Origin: Nemertoderma westbladi
Taxonomy: Eukaryota > Animalia > Xenacoelomorpha
DNA length: 58,093 nucleotides
Reading direction: 5' to 3'
NCBI GenBank assembly: GCA_032718475.1
Contig: JAUCBJ010007347.1
Location: 1-58,093 of the forward strand
In this document: positions 11,519-43,428 of the stretch, in pieces
How positions within the stretch are numbered: position 1 is the stretch's first letter
Layout of the letters: the number at the start of each line of letters is the position of its first letter
Notes under the pieces: generated by a model
Told to the model about the DNA's origin: nothing
Databases searched by the model: none
What the model saw: the letters and a program-made list of their open reading frames with translations, nothing else
Translations under genes and position numbers: made by a program

Positions 11519-11531
11519 AGGAAGGAAGTAG
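11519..11531 (+). promoter_or_regulatory. Polypurine tract of element 2
   Basis: AGGAAGGAAGTAG directly before the 3' LTR. Confidence 0.8.
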
Positions 11532-18794: not shown

Positions 18795-19979
18795 TGTACG
18801 CGCTTTTGAAGACCTTTAGCTGTTTAACCTGCCAAAATTTATATGTCTTTTGGTTTATAAATAGACTTTAGAAAATGACAAGTATTTAATACCAATAAAC
18901 ACAACATTAGCCGAAGCCAGCCTAGTGCGCGTCCATTCACCCGCTGGATATACCCGGGAGACTGGATTCGGAGGGCTTAGATTGTTATTGCAGTGTAAGC
19001 TTACTGTATTATTCGATTGATCGTTAATAAATAATTTCTGACCAATATTATTCACTTTCGGGAAATATTAACAGTTCCTTTAGGACGTGGCGCTCTATCT
19101 AGGTAAACAGAGATATGACTTATACTAAACACAACGGTAAGTCGGTAAGGCTTATATGATTCACGTATGAGGCGCATTCTTTAGGAGATGCTTAGTTATC
19201 AGCCACAATCATGCACACTACCGGTAACGCACAATACTGCTCACTAATCTGCCGACCTTCAATGAATTTTATCATACATAAAGAGAACAGCAATTGACTC
19301 ATGTAGTGCTTATCAAATAGCATTAAATTCACTACAAACCACAATAATATAAGTCGCAATCGCTATATGTAACCCGTCTCTCTAACCTGTAGTGTATCAA
19401 GAAAATTGGGAAATTTGGGTTCTTTATAGATGTTCTCCAAATAATAATATTCAACCAACTGATACAAATAATGACAACAGTAAATAGCAGTATAATAATG
19501 TATGTTGCAGTGATATAAGACTGCTGCTGATTGCACTGATAACAGTTATACGTTCTATAATCTAAGCCTACTAATGTTTCTTCTAAAGTCTGAAACGAAT
19601 TGACTCTAGAGCCGGTGTTCTTGGCCTAGATAAAAACAACACAACAGTATCAAGAAAAAACAGTAAGACAGAACACGCCTAGCACGATCTGTAGAAAATC
19701 TCCACATCGACAGTAAAAATCGCCCTGATTGGCTGTTAAGCTAAACAAAGAACCATGTGTCCAATGGCCGTTTCCATGCCAGCAACCAGCTGTTAGATGT
19801 CGTAATCTGAATCATCAAGGCTACACTGTGCTAGAGTATTTGACGCATTGCGGGTTTTATGCCTTGCCATGTCCGCCAAAGCACATATATAGAAGAATGA
19901 CTTTTATGTCCGTTAAAACACCTACAACGGTACTTTGCGGGACAGGGGACTGATTATATCCTGATAAAAAGCTTTTACA
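18795..19979 (-). repeat. 3' LTR of the BEL element
   Basis: Matches 36051-37230; preceded on the minus strand by a short purine run GGGAGCGG. Confidence 0.95.
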
Positions 19980-20057
19980 CCGCTCCCAGAAAATGGGATT
20001 CAAGTCTACAAATATACAAAAATCACAGTTTCTAATATATGTAAATACTCTAAACAG

Positions 20058-22580
20058 TTAGTCTTTCTTGCGCGGACGGCGTTTACGCAGTTTTTTAAAG
20101 CTGGCCAGAGTCCTTTTCTCTTTGGGGCGAGCCACTTTACAAGGAGGGCTATAACTCCTGGGTGAAGGGTGCAATATGATTGCATCAGAGGGTGTAGGAT
20201 TATGGTCGGTGTATCCGCCAGTCGAAGTACCGGGTTGATTGACATCAACGTCGGGGGAGAGGGGTCTAACGGCCTTGAGAGCGCGTTTTAGGACAGCGGC
20301 TCTTACGGGTCCTTTACGAGTGGTCTGAACGAGAGCCGTGGGTGGACCATAGGCAGTCAGAAACCTCCTGGGTTTAATGGTTCTTTCCAACTCGCGTTTG
20401 CGGGCTCGGTATTCGTAAGGCCGTCGATATACTTCCTGTAACTCGGGGTGTGAGTTAACAAATAAGTCTCCATAGTCCGGATCCTGACGGATATAATTGA
20501 TTAAGTTATAGGAATGAAGGTCGCTAGGATTAACACTCCTGAGAAATTTGCGTACGAATTTGGTTGAAATACATTCTCCGATGCGCTTCAGTAGTTCGTA
20601 ACTCGATATGCGTGATTTCTGTTCGACAGAAGCGAATAGATAAGGATGGAACGCATAAACTCCTTCGTAAGCGCATCCAGGATAATAGCGATGGCGCGAA
20701 TCACAATGTAAATCAGCGTTCGCTTCCCAAGCTCTGATGTAACGTAGTATGATCATTTCATCTACGCTTTCCAAATCGTGATTAAAAGGGCAATCGAAAC
20801 TGGCGTGTCCCTTTAGTTGACAATGGTGACATTGAGTCATAAATTGAGGGCAAACCGCAAAAATATGCAAGTTATTGAGTCTGCAATATGCGCAATAAAT
20901 TTCCATCGTCGGTTGTTCTTGGAAATAGGAACAGCGGACGTTTGTGTCCATGGGCGTAACATGGTCTCTCGATGCGCATAACCGACAACGTTGCCTAGAA
21001 ACATATTTGGCATGTCGATAATCGTACGCAGTGAGACACTGTGGACCTTGATACCATTCTAGGATGTAATCGTTGTCGCTGTTCCGGGGCGCGATAGGCT
21101 GAATCTCCTCAGATTCTAGGCATATTGGTTCGTCTTCCCAGTGCATAGCTGAGGTGGGTGTGTCTGTCTCTTCAAGTGGACCTATTGTCTGAATTTCCAC
21201 GACAGAATAACCTGTGGGGATTCGAGGTCTTTGTATAACAGAGGAGTGCAAGTTCGATATACAAATCTCTTTGAAAATGGCAAATCCAGCGCTATCCAAC
21301 TTCTCTGCAGCTGAGTTTCTTAGGCTGAGCTTGGTCAAAGCGCGGTCTTTAAATTGGCTATCCACGTTGCGGAACGGGGTTAAAAATCGCCGGAAACATT
21401 CGAAGCGGATGAATTTATTATGTTCATCTAGCTTAGCGAGTTTGGTCCCAAGTATTAATGGATGGGCGCGTATAGTACAACTGCACACATCGGCTAGCCA
21501 ACCGGCAAGTGCGGTGTTTTCAAAGATCGTGTAGATAGCTAAGGAGGGGCGGAGTGGAACACTCATGAAGCTATACACGGCGCCAGGTGCGGTCAATGGT
21601 CCATCAAAGTATAATCGAGAATAATGGTCTCCGTATACTTGTTGATAGTTGATGGGATTTCCGACTTTGAAATTCCATCCGTATTCCTGAAAGCCAAGAT
21701 GTCCGATGGAAGTTCGTTGCACCTTTGTAATGTTGCTAGACGTATTAGCATACATGGTGCGGAAGAAACCTCGACCTTCTGCCCAGGGAGCAATCAGCTG
21801 CGTATCCACGAAAGGATATGGGATATTTTCCATATTCCGAAAGTCGTTTTGGAGATCTCCATAAACAGCTGAGCCGATTTTAAGGATTCTTTCGTTGAAT
21901 AACATCTCGAGTACGGGCTGGGGTAACATCGATCCATCGATACCCATGGCCGGTTTGCGTTCGGTGTCAATGACGTAACGCTGCGCGAGTTCGAATTGTC
22001 CATGTCGGAGATTCTTTTGTGTTTCGGTGAGAGTTTCAAAGGAATAATCAATCACGGCGGAACACGCTCGAGTAAACACGTGGGTAGAACCAGCTAATCC
22101 GCGTATGTGGATCATGCGCGTAGTTCCTAGTTCTCCGACCGGAACGCTACCTTCATTATCGTAGGTAACAACTCCATACATCTCAATAACATTAAGAGTT
22201 TCATTCCACTCCTTGGTGGCGTTCTCTAGGGTCATCCCTACTGGATGCCACAAGGTGGCGCATTGGTTAGCGTCAGGGAGATCACTATACTTCATGTGCC
22301 GAGTGGTATACGTCTCCACATTTCCATATCTTTGTATTTTCTCTTCTTCAAATAATACATCTAGATTCCAATGGACTAATCGAGTTTTAATAAATCCATC
22401 GAGATTATAAGGAGGTTCTATATCCTTCTCGATTCTAGAAATGTTACATGGTTTTCTAAATGAGTTTACCTTTACTAACTGATCCAGATGTTTCTGCAAT
22501 TGTTCGAGTTCGACAATGTCTAGAGGATTTATTAGTGGTAGAAACTTTAAATTATGCGTCGGGTCTTCTGGTTTTACCAT
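20058..22580 (-). CDS. Accessory ORF: DEDDy-like 3'-5' exonuclease, Cys/His zinc knuckles and a basic tail
   Basis: 840 aa with VVTYDNEG (ExoI), LPQPVLEMLFNERILKIGSAVYGD (ExoII), FVDTQ and PL....IYTIFE (ExoIII-like). Also CRLC..DH, CAYC..H...C, CHHCQLKGHASFDC, and a KKLRKRRPRKK tail. Confidence 0.65.
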   Translation of the reverse strand: MVKPEDPTHNLKFLPLINPLDIVELEQLQKHLDQLVKVNSFRKPCNISRIEKDIEPPYNLDGFIKTRLVHWNLDVLFEEEKIQRYGNVETYTTRHMKYSDLPDANQCATLWHPVGMTLENATKEWNETLNVIEMYGVVTYDNEGSVPVGELGTTRMIHIRGLAGSTHVFTRACSAVIDYSFETLTETQKNLRHGQFELAQRYVIDTERKPAMGIDGSMLPQPVLEMLFNERILKIGSAVYGDLQNDFRNMENIPYPFVDTQLIAPWAEGRGFFRTMYANTSSNITKVQRTSIGHLGFQEYGWNFKVGNPINYQQVYGDHYSRLYFDGPLTAPGAVYSFMSVPLRPSLAIYTIFENTALAGWLADVCSCTIRAHPLILGTKLAKLDEHNKFIRFECFRRFLTPFRNVDSQFKDRALTKLSLRNSAAEKLDSAGFAIFKEICISNLHSSVIQRPRIPTGYSVVEIQTIGPLEETDTPTSAMHWEDEPICLESEEIQPIAPRNSDNDYILEWYQGPQCLTAYDYRHAKYVSRQRCRLCASRDHVTPMDTNVRCSYFQEQPTMEIYCAYCRLNNLHIFAVCPQFMTQCHHCQLKGHASFDCPFNHDLESVDEMIILRYIRAWEANADLHCDSRHRYYPGCAYEGVYAFHPYLFASVEQKSRISSYELLKRIGECISTKFVRKFLRSVNPSDLHSYNLINYIRQDPDYGDLFVNSHPELQEVYRRPYEYRARKRELERTIKPRRFLTAYGPPTALVQTTRKGPVRAAVLKRALKAVRPLSPDVDVNQPGTSTGGYTDHNPTPSDAIILHPSPRSYSPPCKVARPKEKRTLASFKKLRKRRPRKKD

Positions 22581-22586
22581 ATAATA

Positions 22587-23471
22587 TCAAGTATTATCGA
22601 CGAGTATACCGTCAACACGAGCGGCCTCGATCGGTGGACGCTGTAACATAGGGGCGTCAGCGATAAGATTTTGCGATCCTGTACTGATATCAACCGGTTG
22701 AGGTTGTATCGTCGCGAAGAGTTTGTCTCCGAAATGTGGAATCATCGAGGGATGACGGACGGTTTTAGAGTAGAGATCTGTCATAAGGATTTGAGCTTCG
22801 GGTTGGGCTAAAGCGGCTTCTTCTCTCTCGTCCATTTTCGTGTGTTTCTCCTCGAGTAGATTTTCTTCCGCTTGTCTCTGTAAGCGTTCATCTAGAAACT
22901 CTTGTAGAGAATACGTGCGTCCAAGCTCGATGTCCTCCTCGAGGTTTTGGATTTCTCTATCGAACTGTGGCAAGGCTAACTCCTTCACCGATTGGACTTG
23001 TTGTCGTAATTTACGTTTCTCTAAACAATCTTGTGTTCCCTTTCCGATCTTCTGTCGAATAGCGTCTAAAGCGTTTCTTATAACGCTCTCCTCGACTTCC
23101 GTGGCGGGTTGCATCGGGTTTAATCCTGGACGATTGTAAGGATCAAAGGGCGATATTAGCTGCCCGCGTCCCAATCCGGCTAAGTAGGATGGGCGAATGT
23201 CTAACGAACCCACTACTGGAGCACCACCGATTAATTGTTCGGGTAACACTAAGTCTTTGAACAGGGAATATAGTTCGGGAGGATCAGTGATACTGTTAGG
23301 ATCAAGAGTTTGAGGTCTCACTAGGGAATGAGGAGGCCTGACCGAGTATTCCGGAACTCTGATCATGGGTTTATTCAGTGATCGTTTAAGACGAGCGATC
23401 GTAGGTGATACGTCGAACAGGTTTCGCTCGAAACTCCCGTAAGTATAACGCGTAAAGCTGTGTTTACGCAA
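22587..23471 (-). CDS. Accessory ORF of unknown function, with a coiled-coil-like acidic segment
   Basis: 294-aa ORF in frame with the exonuclease ORF, separated by one TGA plus two codons. Confidence 0.5.
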   Translation of the reverse strand: MRKHSFTRYTYGSFERNLFDVSPTIARLKRSLNKPMIRVPEYSVRPPHSLVRPQTLDPNSITDPPELYSLFKDLVLPEQLIGGAPVVGSLDIRPSYLAGLGRGQLISPFDPYNRPGLNPMQPATEVEESVIRNALDAIRQKIGKGTQDCLEKRKLRQQVQSVKELALPQFDREIQNLEEDIELGRTYSLQEFLDERLQRQAEENLLEEKHTKMDEREEAALAQPEAQILMTDLYSKTVRHPSMIPHFGDKLFATIQPQPVDISTGSQNLIADAPMLQRPPIEAARVDGILVDNT

Positions 23472-24196
23472 CGTCTCCGCGGATGTTTATGTCTTTCAGT
23501 TTGTTGGTTGGGTCTAGGGCATTCGTCACAATAATACCAAAGACGTACGTCCTGTAGAGGAAACGCGGGTGATCGTTCTCCAGTTTTGCAATATTCTTCC
23601 ATTTGTTCAAAACTATCCGGGATAACAGGTAGTGGACGATCGGCGGTAAGATACATCATAGTGAAATAGAGCCGTTTGAGTTCTACCATAGGGTCATGAT
23701 GTATACCTTGAGGATATCGAGTCTCTAGGTTCTGCTGACTGGCGATGTTGAGATAGGTTTCTCTCAAAAATTCTAGGTAGTCGTTGAAGTCGATGCGTTT
23801 ATCCGGTTCTTCAACGTTTTCTCTTTCCAGTCTATTAGGAATAGAATTTTCGTGATCTATTCTCGGTTTATCATTACGACTCCGCTGGGTATGATATTTA
23901 AATAGAACCATTTCCCTTTCTGTATCTACATCGTCCGTATCATGTAAATCGATAGGATGGCCGGTAGTTAAGAAGTCCATATACGTACCATTACGATTCG
24001 TATAGAGAGCGGTGAATTTTCGATAGTCCAATTCACGCGCAAGTTGCTCTTGGGACATCGACGGTTCAATATAACGACCATCGTCCTCCGTAATGGTTGG
24101 ATCGGCTTCACCGCGTATTAAGCTATCCACAAATGCTTGTAAGGGTAGAGTATATCGCTCCCTAATACCAAGATCATCTTCTATCAACTCCGTCAT
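23375..24196 (-). CDS. Accessory ORF of unknown function
   Basis: 273-aa ATG-initiated ORF overlapping the next ORF in another frame; possibly one frameshifted gene. Confidence 0.5.
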   Translation of the reverse strand: MTELIEDDLGIRERYTLPLQAFVDSLIRGEADPTITEDDGRYIEPSMSQEQLARELDYRKFTALYTNRNGTYMDFLTTGHPIDLHDTDDVDTEREMVLFKYHTQRSRNDKPRIDHENSIPNRLERENVEEPDKRIDFNDYLEFLRETYLNIASQQNLETRYPQGIHHDPMVELKRLYFTMMYLTADRPLPVIPDSFEQMEEYCKTGERSPAFPLQDVRLWYYCDECPRPNQQTERHKHPRRRCVNTALRVILTGVSSETCSTYHLRSLVLNDH

Positions 24197-25808
24197 ATCT
24201 GCTATCTGAGTTTATTAATATCAAAATGAGTTTATGTTTAGGCTAGCGGGCGTTGCTGCCTACCTCTCGTTGCCCCCGGACAGTGGGATTCTCAGCGCCG
24301 ATGTACCGTCGTCGCGGTGTTTACGCCAACATGTAGCAACAGCACGACAACGATAACTGGCACAAGTCACTCCACTGTCCGTCGCAAAGGTTTGGATCCA
24401 CTTTAGGTTCTTTCTATAGGAGAGTTGGGTTACTTTCACAATTGCGACTAGCTACTGTAAACATACTTTAGCAGTAACATTCACCTATAAACGCACAAAT
24501 TCCACACAACTGTCACCAATTGTACACATACAGGCCATTTGTCCGTTAGTCAGTGCCTTCCAGAATGTCACGTTATTACTGTGTATCCTTGGATACTAAC
24601 AGTGTGCTATGTATTCTCTATGCTATGCAATGGGACAAGCTTTCTATTGTTCTTTTAACTTGCTTCTAATTCTAGCGTGGTTGTTGCTATGGTGACATTA
24701 TGGAAAGCTAGCGGTAGAATTAGGGTAATTTTCATGCATACAGATCTGGAATGCTATTTAATAGTAATTCTTTAATTGTCAATATCCTCTTTATACATGA
24801 TTTTATTAATTTTATCGGCTATTGACTATATGTCGGAGATTCTCGCACTCTAATACACTCAATAGGATGAATCTCCGCTCCCATGATCTATTAATTAATG
24901 GAATTTTGGGAATGTTATAAATTGCACAAAATGACAATTTATGAAATTCATTTAAAATATGAATTTAAATTTATTCCCGTGAATTTTATTATTTGATGTT
25001 AAAATTGACACAATTTTTATTCCAGAGCATGTCTGGGGACTGAGGATCCTTAATTCTATAAAATTGTCTTTTAAGAGTATCGGTAAGACTTAACTGACTA
25101 GAAATTTTAAAGGATCTGAATTTTACAGATTTTAATAAATATTAAATTAATATTTAAGATGGGCACCGATTTATTCCAGAACTTGTCTGGGGACGTTAAC
25201 CACTGATTCTAGAATTTGTCTTTCAAGTATATCGGTGGGTGCCGCGATATCTTAATCGACTAGAATTACAGATGGTCAAAAGGTTTAACAGATTTATTTG
25301 CGTTTTACGCTACTGTTATAGGGACATCACGCTACTATATGTATTATTATATATGGTATGAGAGCAATATCGCACGAAGCAATGTCAGTGTGAAGAGGCA
25401 AGTCGTTTCCAAGGTCTACCCAGAGCTTGGTTTAGCCGAGACACGAGGATCTGAACTTTGCATTCCTAATACTCTGCCTACCAATAATACTTGAATATAG
25501 TAGTGGCTTTATTGTACTTTAATAAGTATGGACATTTCATCTTACTGTAGTCACGTATTTATAATATGATACGGACAGTAAGGAAAAAGAAAAAATTATT
25601 TCTCGCCGTCACACTAAATATATATTATATATATGTAATTACGTAATAAACACTAATATATTGCACTAACCTACTAAATAATCTAAAATAACATTCTACT
25701 AAATAAAATTAAATAAAACGATTATAATAAAGTACATAATAAAGTTCGCATATAAAAATATAATAAAAATAGATAGAATAATATAGTCATACACCCACTC
25801 CAGACGTA

Positions 25809-28445
25809 TCACGTTGGGGAGTCCCTAGATGTTTGAGGAATTAGGGAGGTGATCGTGGGAAGAGTGTCTTGCCTTCCATAGTTTCCGGAGAGTTCTCTGT
25901 CTCTTTCCAGTAAACATAAACGACCAACTGGGCGGTTGAGTTGTTGCGTCTCAAAGATTATGCCTGGCTTCTTGAAGTTACGCCGCATGACGACGAGTTC
26001 TACCGAGCGTACTAAACCATCATCCGAGATGTGAGTCTCGATGATACGACCTGTCTGCCACCGTTTACGTGGAAGGTCTGAATCTACAATAAGCACCATA
26101 TCTCCAGCGCTGACGTTTTCTTGCTGCGCAAACCACTTAGTTCGAAGTTGTAGCGTGGGCAGATAATGTTTCTCGAAATGGTCAGCGAAACGACGGGATA
26201 GCAACTGCATAAGTTGCCAAGTTCGACGGCAGTATTCGTCTCCGTCGGTAATCTCCGATCGTGGGAGCATGGCTACAGGTTTCTTCAGTAGGAAGTGCGC
26301 GGGTGTTAGCGCTTCCAGGGAATCGGGACTCGATGAGACTGGCATAAGCGGTCTCTCATTGAGATAGGCAGCTATTTCCTCCATTAACGTCCGCAAAAGT
26401 TCGTCGGTGAGATACGCGCGGCATGGCACTATAAAGTGAAATGCGGTCTTGACACTTCTAATTAATCTCTCCCAACTTCCTCCCCACCAAGGGGCGTCGG
26501 CGGCGTTGAAGGTCCAGCTAGACGCTGTTATCCTTAGCTGATCGTCCACCTGTCTTTGGTTCCAGTCCTTCACGTAAGCCTGTATTTCGTTGTTGGCACC
26601 AATGAAGTTCGTTCCCTTATCCGATCTCATGGTATTACTCGTCCCGAAGCGAGCGATCTGTCGGCGTAAACTTAAGACGAAGCTGTTGGTAGATAGATCG
26701 TTCACCATATCGAGATGGATGGCTCTACAAGTCATGCATACGAAGATGACACACCATCTCTTGACTATAGTCCTAGCACGATATACTTCAATAGGGCCAA
26801 ATAAATCTACACCAGTATTAGTAAAAGGTGGTTCATAGAAGCTTACTCGTTCCCTAGGTAATTCTGCCTCTCGCTGTGTTAAAGGCCTACTGAATGCTTT
26901 CCTACAGGGTATGCAGTTCCTAAGAACTTGGTTCAGAGCTCTACGGGGTTTATCAAAATAATAGCGAGTTCGAATTTCGCTAAGAACTCGTTCTCTACCA
27001 GCATGATAAAGTTTGCTGTGAACATCTACAATCATCTTGATTTGTACTTCAAGATTTCTAATGAGAATGGGGAATTTAGTGTCAAAGGATAATGGCGCAT
27101 TGGTGAGCCTTCCTCCAACACGTATTAACCCATCTATCATTGTGCTGGAGAATCGATCCCTTAAGCGCATCTGCGGATTTCTCAACAACAGGAAATACTT
27201 ATCGGAAACCTCATAGCATTGCAGGAGTCTCAGTATCTGCTTATTGGTTTCTTCATGCTCCTGGTAACTAATTTTCTCCTTTAGAAACCGGTCGGATGTC
27301 TTATATTTGGGTAAATTTTTAATAACATGAACTTGCGCAGATGTCAATGGAGCGGTATCACTAATGGTCTTCGTCCTGGAGTAGTGATGATGAAAACATC
27401 TCCTTAAATACGTGACGGCTTTACAGAGCCGATTCCAGGAACTGTAGTGATGCATTGCTCTCTGCAGCAGGGGTGAGATTCCTTGCGAGACGTCTGGTAT
27501 TCCAGATTTCCAATCTCTATCTCTAATTTCCACAACAGACTTATTTGTGGCGAGGGATTGTGGATCCGAAGCATCGTTTCCGGAAGTATGTAATACAGAT
27601 AGATCGATAGTCGGTTTAAATAACTTCGATTTACTCGCCCGGGTTTTAGGTTTGACTTTCTCCGCTCCCTTGGCTTGTCTAATCTCCGCCGTAGTAAGGT
27701 GAGGAGGCCATTCATCCTCTTCCTTACTCAGGAAGTCGGGTCCACTCAACCAGTCTGGAGTATCTATCAGTTCCTGTGGAGTCGCTCCCCTGGAGGCGAT
27801 ATCGGCTGGATTAATCGTACCAGGGCAATGTCTCCATTGATCTATCTTTGTGCGACTAAGAATAATAGCTACCCTGTTAGTAACAAAAACCCTGAACTGA
27901 CAGACTTCATTGGTTAGATACTCCAACACGAGTAAAGCGTCGGTCCAATAAACAGTTTTCTCCAGTGGATAGTCGATTTGTTCTGTTACGTTCCGGCCGG
28001 TGGCTGTAGCGTATAAAGCCGCCTTTAACTCCGCTCGAGGAACCTTTAACTTGTTGTTAATCAATGCCTTAGAGGTAACCAAGGCGACTTTGATTCCATC
28101 CGGAGTTTCGACTCGCAGATATGCTACTATACCTATTCCCATGTCGCTGGCGTCTCCAAACACATGGAGTTGATAGGAATAGGTAGGAAGAACATGACCA
28201 AAATTAAAAATTAGGGAAATTATAAAGCTCTCGATGGCAGGTAGAGAATCTTCCCATTTCATCCATTTCTTTAACAGTTCTCCCTTAAGTGGATCGTCCC
28301 ATGAGTGGTTTTCAAGCCACATTTGTTGTACTAAACTCCGAGCAATCAATATAACTGGGCTAATAAATCCCAATGGGTCGAAATAAGTGCTCAGGATACT
28401 TAAACAAATCCGTTTGGTCCGAACTGGATTATCTCGCTGTCCCAC
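25809..28445 (-). pseudogene. BEL/Pao pol, RNase H and integrase part
   Basis: TKR..LS...FDPLG, HVFGDAS, PRAEL, WTDA, NPADIASRG, H...HAG..C..C, DLFGP, SDKGTNF, WERLIRSVK. Joined to RT across a frameshift near 28430. Confidence 0.9.
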
Positions 28446-31400
28446 TTCAAGCCAAGCGTCTTGGTTTCTGGAAGATCATCCTTTATTAAGTCTAGGTCTT
28501 TCGCTCCTTGGTCTTCTACCGGTATCGCTTCCAGAAACTCACGGGAGTTGCTGGTGAATTTCGTCAGTCGAAATCCACCTCTTTTCAAACACTCTACCGT
28601 TCCTTTCGCGACATCAATGGCTTCTTCTACTGATGGAAGGGACCTTAAATTGTCGTCCATGTATATATTACGCTTGATGTTGTCTATCACCTCTTTTGAG
28701 AAGGCGTCTCGGTTGTCATTCGCAGTGGTCCGCACCACGGAGCAGGCGTTGGAAGGGCTAGATATGATCCCAAAAGCCTGGATGGTCATCCAGTACTCTA
28801 CCGGTTTCTGGTTGAGATCTCCTTCAGGCCACCACAGAAATCTGAGGCTGTCTCTATCTCTATCCAGCGCCTTGACTTGTAAGAACATTCCTTCTATATC
28901 GGAGGCGAACGCGATGGAATATTGTCTTAATCTTAAAAGTATTCCCAACAAAGATTGGAGTAAGTTGGGTCCTGGTAACAACTCGGAATTGAGGGATTGG
29001 CCCATATATAGAGCAGAGCCATCGAATACGACTCGTACTTCATGGGGTTTACCGGGTTTGGGAACGTAATGATGTGTTAAGTAATACGTTCTCTCAGTCA
29101 CTGGTGTTCCTTCCGGTACTCGCTCCGCGTATCCCTTTGTAATAAATTTCTTCAACTGAGTTTGGTACATTTCTTTAGCTGAAGCATTAGCCGTAAGGCG
29201 TCGATGTAATTGAGTGATTCTTTTCTCTGCCAAGGGTCCGTTATTTATAAATCTAGGTTCTCGTTTTCGAAATGGTAGGCCGATTTCATATCTACCTTGA
29301 TCTTTTAAAAAACGTGTAGTTGTTTCCTGGATTTGCTTGGCTCTTTCTTCTTCTATCGATAGGGCCTTATCGTATGAATTGGGCTCTACCAATTCTTGAG
29401 TAAAGAATCGTACGGCGAGTTCGTCCCGAGTTCTAGCGTTGTAGCGCTCTATTTCATCATTTAGTTCGTCATTGTAGTCAATGGGTCCCGATGGGCGAAT
29501 CAGTTGACCTAGGTTCACCTGGTTTTTCCAAGTTTTGTTTTCTGTAAGTAAGTCGATTGTGTTCTCTTCATCGAAGAGTTGGTAGATGTCGTCATTATCT
29601 GAGGAGTATGGTGTTCCCTCAGTTAGTTCGTCCACCTCACTGCTCTCCACTTCCCAATCGTTTACTTGGTATATTCGTTCTTGTGGCATTCTCTCTTCGA
29701 GAGTTCTGCGGGAAGGGCCAGTAAAGTACCAACCTACTCTAGCTCTTACCGCATAGGTTTGCAGTGGCTGCGGTTGAGCAGGCCGTTTCTCCAATGTCTC
29801 GAGCGCCTCATGCGCGTTTTGGCTGATGAGTATTTGCACTCCAGGATAATCTGTCTGGAATCGAGGTATCTTAAGCTGTTGGATGCTCTCATCCTCGTCC
29901 CAATTATAAAGATATGCTTGGGTAGTAGCAAAGTTCTTTATAGCCACCATTTTTACCGACCTTATACCTTGTGCTCCTAATTTATCCTGGGGGGTGGACA
30001 ACACACCTACATAGTAATCTGCCGTTAGGGTAGATTTCCAAACCTGCATAATTCCTGACATATTCAATTTAGTCCGGAATTTGGGTTGTCCAGCAAAGAT
30101 ATCTTCGGCTAGTTCTTGATCGATGAATGTTCCTGTGCTGCCGGAGTCAAGGAGGGCGTTCACTATGTAACTTTTGTTAGGACCGTGAACTCTTACCTGC
30201 ACTACAGGAAATTCTCTGATTCCTACATTGGAAGTTGGAGCTTTCCAAGATGGTTGTCTGTCAAAGGTAGTTGGGGGGAACTCATTGTCGGTGTCCTTTT
30301 CGTAAGTAAGTGCTCAATACACCGCGGTATTGATTAGGTAACAGGATTCGTTGGCGTCAGAGAATTCGTCAGTATAGAATCCTTCCATCTCAGACTCTTG
30401 ATCAGTGTCATTTACATCACTGAATTGGACATGTAGTTCGGGCTCACTTACCTGACTCGAGTTGTCTCGTTCGAATTCACTGTGTAACAAGATGTGATGT
30501 TTCGCACCGCACTTTGCACACTTTACGTCGGAGTAACAGGTTCGCCGTTGGTGTCCTGATCTGAGGCAATTATAGCATAACCGCTTATCCCACATGACTG
30601 CACGTCTGTCTACAAGGGATTTCTTTAGAAATTCAGCACACGCACTCAAATGATGGGGCCCGTCGCACAGCGCACAGTTTGGTTTGATGTTACTCACTTT
30701 ACCTTGGGTAACTTGATGCACTCTCGTTCTTTCTTCGGGCTTTCTTCGGTGCATTCTGTTAGGAGACTGAGGAGGGGTCTTGGCAACCTGTTCTCTCCTA
30801 TCGTTGGTTCGAGCCTTGTATTTACTTACGTCTTTTGAGATTTTGTTAACGTAGTAAAATTTGTCAGTGTCTTTTCCGCTGTCCTCTTCTTGAGAAGCTT
30901 GGCTTTCGCCGTCATCAGTGTAACACACTGGTGTTACTCTTCTCCTAGAAACGGGTTTCTCACTTACCTTATTTTCCGATGTCTTCTCTCTGGACTGCTT
31001 GATGAGTTGTAGTTTTACTTCACCATCTAAGAAGGACATGAGATCAGCCATGGTAGGGCTTCGTCGTTGCTGCTCATTCATATACAACACTTTCTTGTCC
31101 CAACGTGTACATACTCCACCCTTTGGTAAAGTAGAGACTACGGCTCCAATAACCATGGAACTCTGATATTCATGAGACTTACCTAACCAGTCCAATTGTC
31201 TACAGATCTCCTGAATCTCATCGGAAAACTCTATAATCCCGCTACTAAGGAAGTTTCTGGGGGCTACTAATTTTGCATACAAATACTTAGCTATGTTATC
31301 CTTGTTACCATACCTGATGTTTAATGTATCCCAAACTTGTCTTAATCCATCTGGATGTCCAATAAACTTTAACGCCATTCACTTGGGAGGTCCTTCCAAG

Positions 31401-33778
31401 CACTTGATGAGGAATCTAAGTTTCTCTCCGTTAGATAGTACAGAGTTCTGTATGCTATCTTTGTAATATTCATTGAAAGGTAACCATTTCATCTCATCTC
31501 CATTGAATTTAACGATCTCTCCCACTTTGACCGCTTGGCGGGCTTCTGTTCTAGCCATCTGACGCGTAAAGCTTTCTTGGGCCATCGTGTTATTTAATAT
31601 CGAATTATCGGTATATAAATTTCTCGGATCATTATCAGGTCTATAGGGAATATCATTAACAACAGGTTTATAATCACCCTTAATAGGGTTTGCTATAGGA
31701 GTTTCTACTTCACTAGCAGTATAGATGCGTGTAGGCTCCACACCTTGCGCATGTAATACTTCAGACCTAACAGGTTGACACAATGTTACTGGGGGTATTG
31801 GTATACCCTTTTGTATATTGACTAATTTGTCACGTTCTAGCGCGATACTTTGCTGCACTTCTTGCAATTCTGCCCTACTTTCCCTTACTGTTCCCTTAAA
31901 TTGGTGGACAGTCTCCTGCATCTGTCCGAGCAGGAGATTCATCCCCCGCCGTCCCTCCTCTACCCACTCGACCGCCGAAGCGGGAGTCGCCAACATTGTA
32001 GCGGGCCGACGCGGGACGACGGGAGACAAATCTTTGATTTCTCTCTCAGCTTCCAGGACAGGAATATTCTCATGGACTGTTCTACCGGGTACAGGCAGTG
32101 TAGTACTGTGTAAAGGGAATTTAGAGTTAAGCTCTGGAAGTACAGGGGTCTCTAGTACAGGAATGGCTTTGGGAACGACAGGCCTAATTATTTCAGGCTC
32201 ATCAACTATTGTAGGGAGTCTTTTGACCTGAATAATTTGGTCTGTGGGTTCTGTACTACCTAAGTCTGTGCTAGCTAGTTGTCTTCTAACCGCTGGGGGC
32301 AAATCAGGCAATTTGTGACGGTGAGATGTTTTTCTACGCCTGCTTAGACGAGATCTATTTCCTCCGCCTTCAGGATCGGTGGTTTCGCTTTCCTCCGATG
32401 ATGTGTATCCCTGGCGTTTGGGAGTAGATCGTCTCATCATCTGCATTTGACTAGCAGTTAACTGTTTATTTATGTTGTCTTGCGTCTCTTGCAGATTTTC
32501 CAACTCCAGTTGGGTAGTCTGCTCAGACGCTCTCCGTTCTGCTTCTGCCACTGCCTTTGCCGCCTTTCTTTCCGCTTCTGCTTCTGCCATGGCCGCTGCC
32601 TTTTGGTCCTCTATCCGTCTTTTCTTTACTTGTTCTTCTTGGACTCTAGCGAGGCGGAGTTTTTCATCAAATTTAGCTTGGTTTGCAGCTAACATTTCCG
32701 CATCGATTGAGTCCAACACAAGCTTGGCTCCTTCACTATTGGGGCGAAGTCCAGCCAGTCATCTCCTCAACTCTTCATCACCCAAGAAGCGTTGATAGTC
32801 TGACAGATAGATGTCGATGGCGTCTCTCGTTCGCGGTCTCTCTGCTGTCCCTTCGCTTTCCTCTTGAGAAAGGGTGGCATCGGTTGGTTCTTCATAGGTT
32901 GGTCTCTCAGCCAGCTGGGATTTCCACTGGGCCGTTTCTTGTACTTTGAGACCTACCCGTTGGAACCAAGTCTTGACAGCAACCTGCAGCGACGTGTCCT
33001 GTCTTCTTTTGGAAGTTTCCTCAAAGGCTGATAGGATTAGTCTAATGCGTAGGGTTCTTTCGCGTACTTGATATAGCAGCTCTTCCTGCTCTTGAGGTCC
33101 TTGGGGTTGTCGAAACAGTTGTTCTTCTAATCGCTCTAAGGAGCCGAAGAATCCCTGCACATATCCTGCTGCCGACCTCTTCCAAACAGCTGGATCCATC
33201 GTATCTTTAGTCACTCCCATCCTGTGTATGTCTTCCTAAGTAGCTTCGGACAAATCTAACGGGAGTCCGGGTCTGGGAAAGTTCCATTGTGACTCGACAA
33301 TAGACATCAATTCTTCCCTGGCGTATCCCGCATAACTATCTTGGGTCGCTCGCTTACTTCTCGCCCAATTGACTTGGTGTTCCTCCACCGCAATGAATAT
33401 AGTTGTTAATACTGCGGCAGGAAGGGTGAGAAGGGGATCCGAGTAGGCTGTAGCCGCCATCTGTACTCCGCGTTCGGGGGTCAGCTCTACAGTATCCGAA
33501 CTACTGGAGCTATCGGGTCGCTGGGAACAAGTTTCTTGACTAGGATGTTGCTGCTGTTGGACAGCTGCTTCCTGGTTCCGTTTGACTTGGGCTCGAGTGC
33601 CGATGATAGACCTACGGTGTTGGATTAGCCTAGGGTCTGATACTACTACTGGAGGGATGACTTTTCTTTCAGTAGGAGGTGAGCTGAACCCCTTTCTTAA
33701 TCGCTCCACACTCCTATCTGTGTCACAGATGGTTGTATCGATTAGACTGTCTGACAGGTTTTGCTTAGTGTCAGACAT
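28400..33778 (-). pseudogene. BEL/Pao gag-protease-RT reading frame with four in-frame stops
   Basis: ORFs 33236-33778, 32759-33220, 31379-32719, 30314-31378 and 28400-30202 share one frame. Triple knuckle CALC..H..C/CYNC...GH....C/CAKC..KHH.LLH, protease LLDSGS, RT RVVFDGS, DIEGMFLQ, YMDD. Confidence 0.9.
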
Positions 33779-33885
33779 GTTTATCTATACAGTTGAATGC
33801 TTACTGCTATAGTTACAGTTAAAGCAAGTCTAGTAATTCAGTATGACCGTTGGCCTAGTACCGGTAATTAATTACAGTATATTAG

Positions 33886-34130
33886 AATACCGGTATACAC
33901 TTATAATATATATAAGTATTGTAAACTAGGTTTGTCACAGAATGCCGGTATATAATTTTAGCACAAATATATATAAATATATAATAGGCCTATCGTGAAT
34001 ACCGGTATACAGCCTACACTTATAGTATATAAGTATAATTCTGGACTAGAATTAATTACAGAATACCGGTATAATTTCAGCCTAAATTTATAGAAATAAA
34101 GATAATAGGCCTATCATGAATACCGGTATA
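33886..34130. repeat. Imperfect tandem duplication (about 120 bp) in the BEL 5' leader
   Basis: GAATACCGGTATA...ATAATAGGCCTATC block occurs twice. Confidence 0.65.
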
Positions 34131-35123
34131 TCAATTATTTAAATAATTGAATTTCTGAATTTTAAAGGTTACTTAGTTACTTTAACTTACTTTATTACCG
34201 TTATTTAAGCAGTAGTCCAACTGATATTGAGACCTAGTTGTTGTATGGCAGGCCTACTATTTATAAATCGTTTGAGTTGATTTATAATATATATATACCC
34301 GTTTAAAATGGGTTTTGTCAATATTTGAAATAAATGTTATTATTTCTGGGGGGAGTCACTACACAGAAGCTGTGCGCTCTCAGTGAAGTGCTACGTGTTG
34401 GACTCTAAAACAAATAATTCTAATTTACCTAAGTTACTTAATACTACAAATTACGTACGATACGGGTGAGATTAATTCTCTAACTAAACACAACAAAAAT
34501 ATTACGCACGAAATTTTAGGGTAATTTTACAGGAAATCTACAAACCAGCCTAACAAAGGGTTAGGATTCTGGTTATTACAACGGACAGGGTACTACGGTA
34601 TTTGAAAATAATAAGTAGTAGTAAATATGTTGCGCTGTCCAGATAGGAAAAATACCACCGTCTGACGACCTATAGCCGTATCGCTATAGGTACTACGTTA
34701 TGTATCACAGAGTGTTCCTACCTGGAAGTTAATTACCGCGGACTACCAGATCCAACATGCCTATTAACCACTTTACAACACAATACACTGCCTACACACT
34801 AATTACTTTCGGAAAGCACTGTACACTAAACCCTAAATTAGGTACAAGTACTTATTAAAAACAGATAACTAGCAGTTAAATATACTTGAACAGTTAAAAG
34901 AACCACGGCATCTGCTGGAGTGACTGGAGCACAAAATCACCAGTCTTTACCTACGCCAAGCAGCCCATGTAGTACCGGGGTTAATTTAACTATAACGGTA
35001 TGTGTAACAAGCACAATTACTGTAGGAATAAACTTGGGGACATGAATGTTGCGAATAATCGCATAAACTCTGAATAATAAATATTACGCTACCCGTACAG
35101 AATACTCAAACAAAATACAAACC

Positions 35124-35655
35124 AAACGCTGGCAGACTACCACCAAGCCTAAATAAACTACAGTATGTGCAGATTCCAAAATGGTTAGTTAGTATGCGTT
35201 CTAACACGGTGGTACGACTTATTCTTTAAGAGGGGATTGACCTTACAGCTCTGGCTGCCCCAACTTACTAACTGGCACTTTATCAGATAAACTCTACACA
35301 CGCAGCAATCTCTTCAGACCTAATAATAGCTAGACAACAATCCAGCCTACAAAATATCTGAGTAATAACTATTACGGTACCTGAACAGACCACACAAACA
35401 AACACAGGCTAAAACGCTGGCAGACTACTATCAAGCCTAAATAAACTACAGTATGTGCAGATTCCAAAATGGTTAGTTAGTATGCGTTCTAACACGGTAG
35501 TACGACTTATTCTTTAAGAGGGGATTGACCTTACAGCTCTGGCTGCCCCAACTTACTAACTGGCACTTTATCGGACAAACTCTACACACTCCGCAATCTC
35601 TCCAGACCCAACAACAGTCAGACAACAGTCCAGCCCACAATTATCTGAACAATCT
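35124..35655. repeat. Tandem duplication (period about 289 bp) in the BEL 5' leader
   Basis: AAACGCTGGCAGACTAC...GGCACTTTATC occurs at about 35124 and 35413. Confidence 0.85.
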
Positions 35656-35824
35656 GAGCAGACTTACATGTCTTCAGCTCAATATTAACTTACTAGGAAA
35701 TAAAACTGACAGAAATAGACCTAAGTAAAATCCCAATAAAAACCAGGCGTCCCCGATTTAATATCGAGACCTACCGGTATACAATAATCAAAATCGAATA
35801 ATACTAATGTACTTATACTGGAAG

Positions 35825-35988
35825 TACCGGTTAGGACAGTTGGGCCTACCGACCTACAGCAGTACCGGTTCAGGCAGTTAGGCCTACGGACCTACAGCAG
35901 TACCGATTCTGGCAGTTGGGCCTACGGACCTACAGCAGTACCGGTTCTGGCAGTTAGGCCTACGGACCTACAGCAGTACCGGTTCAGG
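35825..35988. repeat. 38-bp tandem repeat x4 in the BEL 5' leader
   Basis: TACCGGTTCWGGCAGTTRGGCCTACGGACCTACAGCAG units. Confidence 0.9.
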
Positions 35989-36050
35989 TTTACCGGTCGA
36001 CCGGTACTTTCAACTTTATTGCTTACTGCAATAAAGAAAATAACTGTTAT

Positions 36051-37230
36051 TGTACGCGCTTTTGAAGACCTTTAGCAGTTTAACCTGCCAAAATTTATAT
36101 GTCTTTTGGTTTATAAATAGACTTTATAAAATGACAAGTATTTAATACCAATAAACACAACATTAGCCGAAGCCAGCCTAGTGCGCGTCCATTCACCCGC
36201 TGGATATACCCGGGAGACTGGATTCGGAGGGCTTAGATTGTTATTGCAGTGTAAGCTTACTGTATTATTCGATTGATCGTTAATAAATAATTTCTGACCA
36301 ATATTATTCACTTTCGGGAAATATTAACAGTTACTTTAGGACGTGGCGCTCTATCTAGGTAAACAGAGATATGACTTATACTAAACACAACGGTAAGTCG
36401 GTAAGGCTTATGATTCACGTATGAGGCGCATTCTTTAGGAGATGCTTAGTTATCAGCCACAATCATGCACACTACCGGTAACGCACAATACTGCTCACTA
36501 ATCTGCCGACCGTCAATGAATTTTATCATACATAAAGAGAACAGCAATTGACTAATGTAGTGCTTATCAAATAGCATTAAATTCACTACAAACCACAATA
36601 ATATAAGTCGCAATCGCTATATGTAACCCGTCTCTCTAACCTGTAGTGTATCAAGAAAATTGGGAAATTTGGGTTCTTTATAGATGTTCTCCAAATAATA
36701 ATATTCAACCAACTGATACAAATAATGACAACAGTAAATAGCAGTATAATAATGTATGTTGCAGTGATATAAGACTGCTGCTGATTGCACTGATAACAGT
36801 TATACATTCTATAATCTAAGCCTACTAATGTTTCTTCTAAAGTCTGAAACGAATTGACTCTAGAGCCGGTGTTCTTGGCCTAGATAAAAACAACACAACA
36901 GTATCAAGAAAAAACAGTAAGACAGAACACGCCTAGCACGATCTGTAGAAAATCTCCACATCGACAGTAAAAATCGCCCTGATTGGCTGTTAAGCTAAAC
37001 AAAGAACCATGTGTCCAATGGCCGTTTCCATGCCAGCAACCAGCTGTTAGATGTCGTAATCTGAATCATCAAGGCTACACTGTGCTAGAGTATTTGACGC
37101 ATTGCGGGTTTTATGCCTTGCCATGTCCGCCAAAGCACATATATAGAAGAATGACTTTTATGTCCGTTAAAACACCTACAACGGTACTTTGCGGGCGAGG
37201 GGACTGATTATATCCGCAAAAGCTTTTACA
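36051..37230 (-). repeat. 5' LTR of the BEL element
   Basis: Matches 18795-19979 and is flanked by the TSD GGACA. Confidence 0.95.
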
Positions 37231-37694: not shown

Positions 37695-39674
37695 TTAACC
37701 GACAGTGACCATTTCCATAGGATCTCCGAACTTATTGAAACGGAAATCAACTCCGCTAGCTTTTATCTTATCATTCCATTGACGGTTCAGGATACTCAAT
37801 TCAACTCCATTATCCGCACCCTCGAAGGCGATGTGACACTTCTTTAATTCTGGAATAATTTCTTGCTGGAACTTCAGCTCACAGATATCAGTTACAACTT
37901 CCGTTTTGAGAGACATGTCCGTAATTGTGATGCTCTCTAGCTTCTTACAATCTCTTACCATCGAAACGAAGTCAACACGTATTTCTTCATCCTGCCCGCA
38001 GGCCATTACCAACTCTTTCAGACATTGGTCCATGTGATCACCTAGATAGCGGAATAGTATAGATAAGCCGTCGACTGTTTCCATCCAAGCTGCAAATAAT
38101 TCGAACTTCGTCAGAGGAGGTCGTCCTTTTATCAAGCGAATCAGCGAATGAACGTCAACTGTCTCGAAGTCGAATAGCATATGAACCGAGAGCTCGGGGT
38201 TGGCTTTTCTCCACGGGCTGTTGTTATTATCAGCAATAGGTAGAACATTATCAGATCCAGTCAGGCAGAGGCGGAGTACCTGTAAAAGCTTCTGTGGGAT
38301 GTAACTGGCCCTTCGCCCCGCAACCCAGTTTTTCCCCCATACGCTAAAATACTCTGAAACCTACTGTAAAGGTTTTTCTGGGATATGACTGATTTGTTTT
38401 CTTTGCTAACCAGTTCCCCCCTCCAAGGCGTTGGAATCCTTTAGGAGGGATCTGAGCTGTTCGATTGGCCAGCCGGCTTGGGAAGGTTGCCCCAGTTACC
38501 CATAGCCCTGCGTTGAGTTAGTTCTGATTTCGACCAATCCCGAGCTACTGAACTGAAATTATCCTGTCTCACTGCTGATTACATGTGTTGAACGGGATTC
38601 TTGGAAAATAAGAGAGCTAAAGTCACGGGACTTTTTGTTATGATTTTAGACTTTATTATCAGAGTTTTAAGACCGTGTTGAGATAGCGAAATGTTTTCTG
38701 CCTTTTATAAGAACATTAGTAGGCTAAATTATAGAAAGCATAGCTATTATCAAACAAACGATTCATACCAATAATATTAGATGGGGACTTTTAGTCAGAA
38801 TTCTTTCTAATATATCTGGATTCAAGTAGTTATAATTGATATCCAGGTTCGTCAACGCCTTCAATGAAGTGAGCGGTCCCATAGCAGATGATATAGGCCT
38901 CGCAGTAGATGCGGCAGATGGATGAATTAATTCATCGATTTTGATCTTCCTAAGAGATCCGCGGTTGTGTCTCACCAAACTTTCTATTAATCGAACACCG
39001 TCAATTAAAGACTTTACTTGCAAATTTATTAGTGTCACGACTTCTAACTCTTTCTGTGATCGGAAGAATTCATTTAAATGCTGATAGAACAGCGATATTG
39101 TTGTGTCATAGATACCGAGGGAGGCCATCCCTTGAAAGCCCCCTAATTGACCGAATAGACTGAATTGTTTTAGCTGGGATACCTTAAGATGATCCACTGA
39201 TTGGCTGAGGTGCCATAACATCTGTTGTCTATTGCTTAGCCTCCCATTGCAACGGATTTCAACTTTTTCCATATGAACTCCGTATTGTCTAAATACTTCA
39301 ATCTCTTTCTTATCGTGATGCCGTTCTCCACTGATGGTAATATCTCTCGTTCTCCAAAGCCCCGCATCTTTCTGGGCCTCATTCCATTTGAGATAAGTTC
39401 CGCCGGCTGACAACCGATCGCATTCTGGTAAATGGCTGAACAATTTAAAAATAAGTTCGTGTGGGAGCGCTGCCCAATCACGGCATTGGGTTGATGTTGA
39501 CCCTTCGTTATCTGGTAGTTCTTTGGAGATCTCAATGACTTCATCTTCGCTATCACCACCGGGGATATAACGTTTATGTCCTAAGTCGTTGTCGCTCTCA
39601 CTATCTGATCCACACGGGAGATGTCGCTTCAATGAAGACTGTTTTCTGGAAGGGCCATGTTGATCTCCCATCAT
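37695..39674 (-). CDS. F-box/LRR-like protein, copy 1; predicted exons 39674-38769 and 38279-37695 (about 496 aa if spliced)
   Basis: F-box motif DWAALPHELIFKLFSHLPECDRL; paralogue of 41920-43428. Removing 38280-38768 (GT...AG) restores the frame exactly. If unspliced it is a truncated pseudogene. Confidence 0.7.
38281..38765 (+). mobile_element. Solo or truncated LTR related to the BEL LTR
   Basis: Absent from the paralogue, TG...CA ends, flanked by TACC repeats. Shares TGTAAAAGCTT..., AAATACTCT and ACATTAGTAGGCT..ATTATAGAA blocks with the BEL LTR. Confidence 0.8.
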
Positions 39675-41919: not shown

Positions 41920-43428
41920 CTAATTAACCGACAGTGAATGGTCACTGTCGGACGTATCCTCCACAGGATATCCGAACTGATTGAAACGGAAATCAACTCC
42001 GCTAGCTTTTATCTTATCATTCCATTGACGGTTCAGGATACTCAATTCAACTCCATTATCCGCACCCTCGAAGGCGATGTGACACTTCTTTAATTCTGGA
42101 ATAATTTCTTGCTGGAACTTCAGCTCACAGATATCAGTTACAACTTCCGTTTTGAGAGACATGTAATGAATTGTGATGCTCTCTAGCTTCTTACAATCTC
42201 TTACCATCGAAACGAAGTCAACACGTATTTCTTCATCCTGTCCGCAGGCCATTACCAACTCTTTCAGACATTGGTCCATGTGATCACCTAGATAGCGGAA
42301 TAGTATAGATAAGCCGTCGACTGTTTCCATCTCAAATGTTAATAATTCGAACTTCGTCAGAGGAGGTCGTCCTTTTATCAAGCGAATCAGCGAATAAACG
42401 TCAACTGTAACGAATTCGAACAGCATATGAACCGAGAGCTCGGGGTTGGCTTTTCTCCACGGGCTGTTGTTATTATCAGCAACAGGTAGAACATTATCAG
42501 ATCCAGTCAGGCAGAGGCGGAGTACCAATAATATTAGATGGGGACTGTTAGTCAGAATTCTTTCTAATATATCTGGATTCAAGTAGTTATAATTGATATC
42601 CAGGTTCGTCAACGCCTTCAATGAAGTGAGCGGTCCCATAGCAGATGATATAGGCCTCGCAGTAGATGCGGCAGATGGATGAATTAATTCATCGATTTTG
42701 ATCTTCCTTAAAGATCCGCGGTTGTGTCTCACCAAACTTTCTATTAATCGAACACCGTCAATTAAAGGGTTTACTTGCAAATTTATTAGTGTCACGACTT
42801 CTAACTCTTTCTGTGATCGGAAGAATTCATTTAAATGCTGATAGAACAGCGATATTGTTGTGTCATTGATACCGAAAGCCATCCCTTGAAAGGGGCCACA
42901 TAATAGACCGTCTAGACTGAATTGTTTTAGCTGGGATACCTTAAGATGATCCACTGATTGGCTGAGGTGCCATAACATCTGTTGTCTGCTTAGCCTCCCA
43001 TTGCATCGGATTTCAACTTTTTCCATATGAACTCCGTATTGTCTAAATACTTCAATCTCTTTCTTATCGTGATGCCGTTCTCCACTGATGGTAATATCTC
43101 TCGTTCTCCAATGCCCCGCATCTTTCTGGGCCTCATTCCATTTGAGACAAGTTCCGCCGGCTGACAACCGATCGCATTCTGGTAAATAGCTGAACAAATT
43201 AGAAATAAGTTCGTGTGGAAGTGCTGCCCAATCAGGGTATCGGGTTGATGTTGACCCTTCGTTATCTGGCAGTTCTTTGGAGATCTCAATGATTTCATCT
43301 TCGCTATCACCACCGGGGATATAACGTTTATGTCCTAAGCCGTTGTCGCTCTCACTATCTGATGCACAAGGGAGATGTCGCTTCAGTGAAGACTGTTTTC
43401 TGGAAGGGCCAGGTTGATCTCCCATCAT
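41920..43428 (-). CDS. F-box/LRR-like protein, copy 2 (intronless, 502 aa)
   Basis: F-box DWAALPHELISNLFSYLPECDRLSAGGTCLKW followed by LxxLxL-type repeats (LKQFSL, LEVVTL, LRKIKI, LTNLDI, LKELVM). Confidence 0.88.
   Translation of the reverse strand: MMGDQPGPSRKQSSLKRHLPCASDSESDNGLGHKRYIPGGDSEDEIIEISKELPDNEGSTSTRYPDWAALPHELISNLFSYLPECDRLSAGGTCLKWNEAQKDAGHWRTRDITISGERHHDKKEIEVFRQYGVHMEKVEIRCNGRLSRQQMLWHLSQSVDHLKVSQLKQFSLDGLLCGPFQGMAFGINDTTISLFYQHLNEFFRSQKELEVVTLINLQVNPLIDGVRLIESLVRHNRGSLRKIKIDELIHPSAASTARPISSAMGPLTSLKALTNLDINYNYLNPDILERILTNSPHLILLVLRLCLTGSDNVLPVADNNNSPWRKANPELSVHMLFEFVTVDVYSLIRLIKGRPPLTKFELLTFEMETVDGLSILFRYLGDHMDQCLKELVMACGQDEEIRVDFVSMVRDCKKLESITIHYMSLKTEVVTDICELKFQQEIIPELKKCHIAFEGADNGVELSILNRQWNDKIKASGVDFRFNQFGYPVEDTSDSDHSLSVN

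What the first reader, a model, noticed from the sequence alone, without database searches (positions are those of the whole stretch)
38277..38769. LTR insertion that creates a frame-restoring spliceosomal intron in an F-box paralogue (candidate intron gain)
Seen: copy 1 has a 485-bp TG...CA insert plus a duplicated TACC that copy 2 lacks. On the gene strand the junctions read TTG|GTATGAAT.....AGCTTTTACAG|GTACTC. Removing 38768-38280 gives CTA ATA TTA TTG GTA CTC CGC, identical to the uninterrupted paralogue (LILLVLR), and both exons stay open. The donor GT comes from the target duplication; the acceptor comes from the antisense LTR end (CTTTTACA) plus one duplicated G. Inference: a recent TE-derived phase-0 intron, Introner-like but made from an LTR. 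The duplication may be a 4-bp TSD or an eroded 5-bp one (GTACC/ATACC).
Basis: partly seen in the sequence, partly recalled or inferred. Interest (0 to 1): 0.8.

Follow-up and report, generated by a model that had tools for sequence, protein, structure and literature searches.

The report
Truncated LTR insertion, candidate newborn intron
A 485-base retrotransposon end-piece sits inside one of two neighbouring F-box genes of an animal, with GT and AG placed so that cutting it out would restore the protein exactly; it is likely a recent, not yet fixed insertion of a known intron-making kind, and its splicing is untested.

Summary
Observation confirmed: TACC-TG(38281)...CA(38765)-TACC; removing 38768-38280 (489 nt, phase 0) restores a 496-aa F-box/LRR frame matching the intronless paralogue. 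Corrections: (1) The insert is probably not a whole solo LTR. It is the 5' part of a BEL/Pao LTR: it shares its head and polypurine tract with the window's BEL element (5-bp duplication), lacks the 3' terminal repeat, and relatives in public runs continue past its end. Likely history: 5-bp-duplication insertion, then a deletion. (2) Open exons are weak evidence: the insert looks young (nearest relatives differ at 1 of 254 and 1 of 367 nt), so a dead gene would often still be open. (3) The ends are partly automatic: any TG...CA element landing at GGT gives them (1-2% of coding sites). Other samples show the empty site. Splicing is untested: about 45% spliced, 40% dead allele. LTR-made introns, including solo LTRs and one Pao-labelled family, are published (PMC12130899). 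The scan had no look-alike of this insert but has transposon-derived introns in other genomes.

The parts
38281..38765 (+). 5' part (likely U3 and start of R) of a BEL/Pao-type LTR, antisense to the gene, probably truncated at its 3' end
   Evidence: Aligns to nt 1-440 of the window's BEL LTR (score 160.5, shuffles max 118) but not to the rest (79.5, shuffle mean 89.6). Loose ends before 38281 in run X6 read the same purine tract as the window's BEL element. Summed contig depth is about 1e5 against 4e2-1.7e3 on the flanks in X1 (not a copy number).
38277..38280 (+). Left TACC repeat; with 38276 it reads GTACC, the likely 5-bp target; 38280 supplies the G of the acceptor AG
38766..38769 (+). 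Right TACC repeat; supplies exon-end G and donor GT; its first two letters are also found in LTR relatives (possible deletion microhomology)
   Evidence: loose ends
38280..38768 (-). Predicted 489-nt phase-0 GT-AG intron
   Evidence: donor matches 5 of 9 consensus letters; further in-frame AGs at 38289 and 38292 (499 and 500 aa)
38769..39674 (-). Copy 1 exon 1, 302 codons: F-box plus the first predicted LRR strands
37695..38279 (-). Copy 1 exon 2, 194 codons plus stop: six further predicted LRR strands
41920..43428 (-). Copy 2, intronless F-box/LRR paralogue (502 aa) with the empty site
   Evidence: model pLDDT 82; best fold match FBXL3 4i6j_B, E 2.3e-13
38652..38657 (-). AATAAA on the gene strand, 112 nt into the insert: possible premature polyadenylation signal
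   Evidence: function inferred
38704..38752 (+). 51-bp block 84% identical to the window's BEL LTR; possible LTR core promoter
   Evidence: function inferred from conservation only
18795..37230 (-). Related full-length BEL/Pao element used as reference: LTRs 18795-19979 and 36051-37230, 98.7% identical, 5-bp duplication GGACA
   Evidence: Peptidase_A17, DUF5641 and DUF1759 hits

Best explanation
The 5' piece of a BEL/Pao-type LTR lies antisense in the coding sequence of one tandem F-box/LRR paralogue with GT and AG exactly at the frame-restoring positions, and it is likely a recent, unfixed insertion that is likely spliced out of at least part of the transcripts as a nascent intron. Shown: the junctions, frame restoration, LTR-head identity and the empty site in the paralogue and in other samples. 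Inferred step 1: integration at GGTAC (gene strand) with a 5-bp duplication put GT in the first target copy and CA+G at the other end. Inferred step 2: a deletion from the LTR's degenerate pentamer tract to the second target copy, at a 2-letter overlap, removed the rest of the element and one duplicated base. That left the apparent 4-bp repeat and gave the donor a G at +5. Inferred step 3: the U2 spliceosome joins 38769 to 38279, or to one of two in-frame AGs 9-12 nt upstream, giving 496-500 aa. The intact paralogue would buffer leaky splicing.
For: Exact restoration. Three consecutive in-frame acceptors. Donor has -1G, +3A, +5G. The window's BEL element makes a 5-bp duplication and has a terminal repeat matching at 9 of 12 nt, against 4 of 12 for the insert. 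Related contigs fit to 38751-38758 and then continue in pentamer-like sequence, one variant sharing CGATTCATA. Contigs in X1 and X2 join across the site, skipping exactly 489 nt (table 5). These runs also hold contigs of copy 1 type: X1 39072-39609 has 5 differences and 0 gaps, where copy 2 differs by 21 substitutions plus indels. Nearest LTR relatives differ at 1 of 254 and 1 of 367 nt. Private copy 1 coding changes are 4 synonymous and 4 non-synonymous, leaning towards constraint (P 0.08). LTRs and solo LTRs are reported to form functional introns (PMC12130899 passages).
Against: No splicing evidence. The donor matches only 5 of 9 consensus letters, and two 6-of-9 in-frame GT sites in exon 1 (38975, 39017) could compete and would delete 69-83 aa. 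There is no YTRAY branch motif in the last 100 nt and only 9 pyrimidines in 15 before the AG. A gene-strand AATAAA sits 112 nt in. The geometry arises unaided at 1-2% of sites. A dead copy this young would still be open with probability 0.5-0.6. Copy 1 has two other insertions within about 1 kb, as expected of a copy under relaxed selection. The empty-site contig (225 nt) is not physically linked to the copy 1-type contigs, so polymorphism is inferred. The same-subfamily full LTR was not recovered, so the deletion is inferred from relatives.
Confidence: 0.45

Rival explanations
1. Dead or truncating allele. The insertion knocks out a redundant paralogue and the GT-AG fit is a by-product of TG...CA ends at a GGT target. 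Transcripts would stop at codon 304 (303 aa, F-box plus half the LRRs), end at the internal AATAAA, or be absent.
For: 1-2% chance geometry; moderate splice signals; intact 96%-identical paralogue 4 kb away; young insertion seen only in this assembly; two more insertions flank copy 1; stop at the second codon of the insert; the insertion splits a predicted LRR strand.
Against: All core U2 dinucleotides are present, with three in-frame acceptors. No stop or frameshift apart from a C-terminal 17-bp deletion that run X2 also carries. Mild synonymous excess, not significant.
Confidence: 0.4
2. Antisense promoter allele. The surviving U3 region fires on the + strand across exon 1 with no LTR poly(A) signal left to stop it, and the antisense RNA would dampen copy 1 and its near-identical paralogue.
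For: The insert is the promoter half of an LTR, points into exon 1, keeps the block conserved with the related LTR, and has no AATAAA or ATTAAA on the LTR strand.
Against: Promoter position is inferred. High-copy LTRs are usually silenced (general knowledge). No RNA data.
Confidence: 0.07
3. One member of a true introner family: an LTR family that prefers GGT targets and has made many introns in this genome.
For: High-copy family; LTR introner families exist, including a Styela family classed as Pao.
Against: Only one site is known. The related element in the window sits at GGACA, outside a gene. The right end looks like a one-off break. No look-alike in the scan's notes (78 noted windows in this genome).
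Confidence: 0.04
4. Assembly error at the right junction: a repeat mis-joined or collapsed, so that the real insertion is longer.
For: The junction lies in a low-complexity tract of a high-copy repeat. No raw reads of the source were available.
Against: Both flanks resume at the exact target base. The window has no N. A 2-4 nt overlap is too short for an overlap-based mis-join.
Confidence: 0.04

Closest known systems
LTR-derived introners (Gozashti et al. 2025, PMC12130899; passages and rows of supplement file 8 seen): Panicum Copia and Gypsy families including solo LTRs; Styela clava fam3 classed LTR/Pao
   Same: An LTR sequence in an exon with splice sites carried by the element or co-opted from the target duplication. 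LTR elements are about 12% of their classified introners.
   Different: Their families need 4 or more copies in non-paralogous genes and start from annotated introns. Here there is one copy, no RNA, and a truncated LTR rather than a solo LTR. The Styela Pao row has mostly non-canonical sites (2 of 6 canonical) and weak LTR evidence.
Symbiodinium microadriaticum introners (PMC9860276, Fig. legend passage)
   Same: [quoted passage not shown]
   Different: Those are TIR DNA transposon-like families in a dinoflagellate; this is a single retroelement fragment in an animal.
Single TE-derived intron gains, e.g. Doc1053 in Drosophila sechellia GM26034 (PMC3296678 passages)
   Same: One retrotransposon insertion read as a new intron in an animal.
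   Different: A non-LTR element that adds five residues; here the predicted removal is exact.
BEL/Pao (Belpaoviridae-type) LTR retrotransposon fragments
   Same: Same 5' terminus and purine tract as the window's BEL element.
   Different: 3' terminus absent; 4 rather than 5 duplicated bases.

Membership tests
Solo LTR of a BEL/Pao element | 5' TG terminus homologous to a BEL/Pao LTR, preceded by a polypurine tract in full elements | tested here: met
   First 11 nt identical to the window's BEL LTR; same tract in loose ends
Solo LTR of a BEL/Pao element | Genuine 3' terminus: CA within a short terminal inverted repeat, shared by family copies | tested here: not met
   4 of 12 matches against 9 of 12 in the BEL LTR, and no alignment to that LTR's last 200 nt; relatives continue past the end
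Solo LTR of a BEL/Pao element | Target duplication of the family's length | tested here: inconclusive
   4 bp here against 5 bp for the related element. 4-6 bp is the general LTR range (PMC8220671 passage); the length for this exact subfamily is unknown.
Introner (PMC12130899 criteria) | At least 4 intron copies in non-paralogous genes | not testable with these tools
   No whole genome held; one copy in the window
Introner (PMC12130899 criteria) | Splice sites carried or co-opted at the element's ends | tested here: met
   Donor co-opted; acceptor is element CA plus target G
U2 spliceosomal intron | GT...AG ends with frame-preserving removal | tested here: met
U2 spliceosomal intron | Branch point and pyrimidine tract | tested here: inconclusive
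   No YTRAY in the last 100 nt, a TNAY at -25, 9 of 15 pyrimidines. The consensus is recalled and this organism's is unknown.
U2 spliceosomal intron | Excised from mRNA | not testable with these tools
   Needs RNA from a carrier of the insertion
F-box/LRR (FBXL-type) gene | N-terminal F-box followed by an LRR solenoid | tested here: met
   PF12937 above cut-off in both copies; model pLDDT 82 with 13 repeat strands; Foldseek 4i6j_B E 2.3e-13

The most novel reading that the evidence does not exclude
A two-step intron birth caught segregating in an animal. A BEL/Pao insertion at GGTAC first makes a weak intron, a microhomology deletion then shrinks it and supplies the donor's +5 G, and the result is a cleanly spliced first coding-region intron in a formerly intronless F-box/LRR gene, with the empty allele still present in other samples for direct comparison.
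Probability: 0.2. Interest if true: 0.6.

Novelty: new member of a known kind. Interest (0 to 1): 0.35.

Why it matters
Known transposon-made introns come mostly from family-level surveys of annotated genomes. A single young allele with its empty counterpart and an intronless paralogue beside it would allow direct measurement of splicing efficiency at intron birth. It would also show that any TG...CA retroelement at a GGT target is a ready-made intron that deletion can tune. If unspliced, it is an ordinary knockout in a fast-turnover gene family.

Tried and rejected
Whole-genome search for other copies: no genome held. Sequencing runs: no RNA holder listed, which is no evidence on expression. 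X6 (RNA is a guess, another organism label) covered LTR relatives and next to none of the gene. No contig covered 38760-38764 in 4 of 4 runs from 3 samples; contigs show presence, not absence, and no run holds more than 0.62 of the words, so none appears to be the source. Both tables were cut (96 and 7 loose-end rows not shown; 24 of 64 variant rows not shown). Homologue search with the F-box protein: none among 6582 candidates; the HMMER search gave 101 hits at 20-38% identity, of which 67 were aligned. Single-sequence fold failed (pLDDT 34). dN/dS between copies (pN 0.034, pS 0.037, 487 codons) says nothing about the time after insertion. The host lineage stays undetermined: ACAD11 is at most 53% identical to many animals, so no lineage-specific splice model was used. 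No real intron was found in the window to calibrate against. Paper searches for BEL/Pao duplication length and for solo-LTR GT-AG exon insertions returned 0; one search gave only the general 4-6 bp statement. Rejected: complete solo LTR; open exons as proof of function; novelty of LTR-made introns.

Full report
Observation. The window holds two minus-strand paralogues about 4.2 kb apart. Copy 2 (43428-41920) is an uninterrupted 502-aa ORF. Copy 1 starts at 39674 and carries 489 extra bases: TACC (38277-80), TG at 38281, CA ending 38765, TACC (38766-69). Removing 38768-38280 (GT...AG, phase 0, 8 in-frame stops) gives 496 aa, with LILL|VLR at the junction as in copy 2. Unspliced, the frame stops after 303 aa.

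Host gene. Both copies have an F-box above the PF12937 cut-off. With a 68-row alignment the copy 2 model reaches pLDDT 82 and shows 13 repeat strands; its best solved match is the chain named FBXL3. The insertion splits strand 300-306, with six strands downstream, so only splicing would give a whole protein. The host is an animal of undetermined lineage.

What the insert is. A full BEL/Pao element lies at 18795-37230, with 1180-bp LTRs 98.7% identical and a 5-bp duplication GGACA. The insert shares its first 11 nt and a 51-bp block at 84%. It aligns to LTR nt 1-440 (score 160.5, shuffles max 118) but not to nt 501-1180 (79.5, shuffle mean 89.6); the middle of the insert alone is not significant (84.5, shuffles max 97.5). 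In public runs the insert is covered at summed depth near 1e5 against 4e2-1.7e3 on the flanks (X1; not a copy number). Loose ends before 38281 in X6 show the purine tract that precedes the window's 3' LTR. So the left end is a true LTR head of a related, abundant family. The right end looks different. The terminal repeat is 4 of 12 against 9 of 12 in the BEL LTR. Contigs fit to 38751-38758 and then run on in varied pentamer-like sequence. One variant (X1 and X3, one sample; also X6) contains CGATTCATA and continues, overlapping the first two letters of the supposed right duplication. The simplest reading, inferred, is an insertion with a 5-bp GTACC duplication and a later deletion at that 2-letter overlap. 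With a BEL-type end the donor would have lacked G at +5; it now has it, which a random join would give about one time in five. I did not recover the full LTR of this exact subfamily.

Age and distribution. Contigs in X1 (1) and X2 (2) join 38276 to 38766, skipping 489 nt. These runs also hold copy 1-type contigs: X1 39072-39609 has 5 differences and no gaps, against 21 substitutions plus indels for copy 2, and X2 37594-38074 has no gaps across the 17-bp C-terminal deletion. This suggests that copy 1 exists without the insert elsewhere, but the pieces are not linked. Nearest LTR relatives differ at 1 of 254 nt (X5) and 1 of 367 nt (X6), less than the 0.9% separating copy 1 from its X1 counterpart, on small counts.

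Is it spliced? For: exact ends; -1G, +3A, +5G at the donor; three consecutive in-frame acceptors (38292, 38289, 38280); 4 synonymous among 8 private coding changes, counted from the 40 of 64 rows shown (P 0.08; 0.12 if a probable ninth, non-synonymous change is added). Against: the donor matches 5 of 9 recalled consensus letters, with two 6-of-9 in-frame competitors upstream; no YTRAY; a short pyrimidine tract; a gene-strand AATAAA 112 nt in. The geometry is automatic for a TG...CA end at GGT, 1.1-2.3% of coding positions. At 0.3-0.4% divergence a dead copy would stay free of stops and frameshifts with probability 0.5-0.6 under an assumed indel rate. Copy 1 also has a 461-bp insertion upstream and the BEL element about 460 bp past its stop. 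I put meaningful splicing at 0.45 and a dead allele at 0.40.

Comparison with print. PMC12130899 (passages; supplement file 8 rows; files 13-14 not searched) reports LTR elements as about 12% of classified introners, states that solo LTRs generate functional introns in Panicum, and lists a Styela family as LTR/Pao. PMC9860276 (passages) describes the geometry of a carried 3' site and a co-opted 5' site. PMC3296678 (passages) gives a single retrotransposon-derived intron in Drosophila. PMC11282704 (passages) notes that single cases are reported in many eukaryotes. PMC8220671 (passages) gives 4-6 bp LTR duplications. My seven answered searches showed no deletion-tuned truncated-LTR intron in their listings; the library is partial and I read only five papers in passages.

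Verdict. It works like a transposon-derived intron on paper. It cannot be filed as an introner (copy criterion untestable) or as a solo LTR (3' terminus not met). It is a real, neat single candidate of a known kind, untested at the RNA level. Interest 0.35.

Noticed in passing
window 37695-39674 vs 41920-43428: Amino-acid differences between the paralogues cluster at the C-terminal ends of predicted LRR strands: 15 of 20 sites, 7 of 11 clusters, permutation P 0.024 (zone chosen after seeing the data). Suggests diversifying selection on the substrate-binding face.
   Followed up: partly
window 20058-24211 (-): Extra ORFs inside the BEL/Pao element, downstream of pol. The 842-aa one has no Pfam hit but resembles 3'-5' exonuclease plus CCHC proteins (Atlas score 0.87, a lead only).
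   Followed up: partly
window 41029-41295 and 44244-44508 (+): Duplicated fragment of a DONSON-like gene (E 2e-5 to PDB 8q6o_R) carried in the same tandem unit as the F-box genes.
   Followed up: partly
window 40285-40754: A 461-bp insertion with a 9-bp direct repeat upstream of copy 1 only; no terminal inverted repeat found.
   Followed up: partly
window 52834-55290 (+): ACAD11-like gene with an uninterrupted 818-codon frame, at most 53% identical to animal homologues; intronless coding region, possibly a retrocopy.
   Followed up: no
window 38281-38450: The LTR head is imperfectly duplicated with an 85-bp period, giving a second acceptor-like site at 38364 that would leave a stop right after the junction.
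   Followed up: partly
window 401-4939 and 6684-11719 (+): Two Gypsy-type elements with long open gag-pol frames; a 39-bp tandem array at 4905-5203 and a 38-bp array at 35823-36012 beside the BEL 5' LTR.
   Followed up: no
window about 37700-37715: Copy 1 has a 17-bp deletion that changes its last residues; run X2 has a gap-free contig across it, so it likely predates the insertion.
   Followed up: yes
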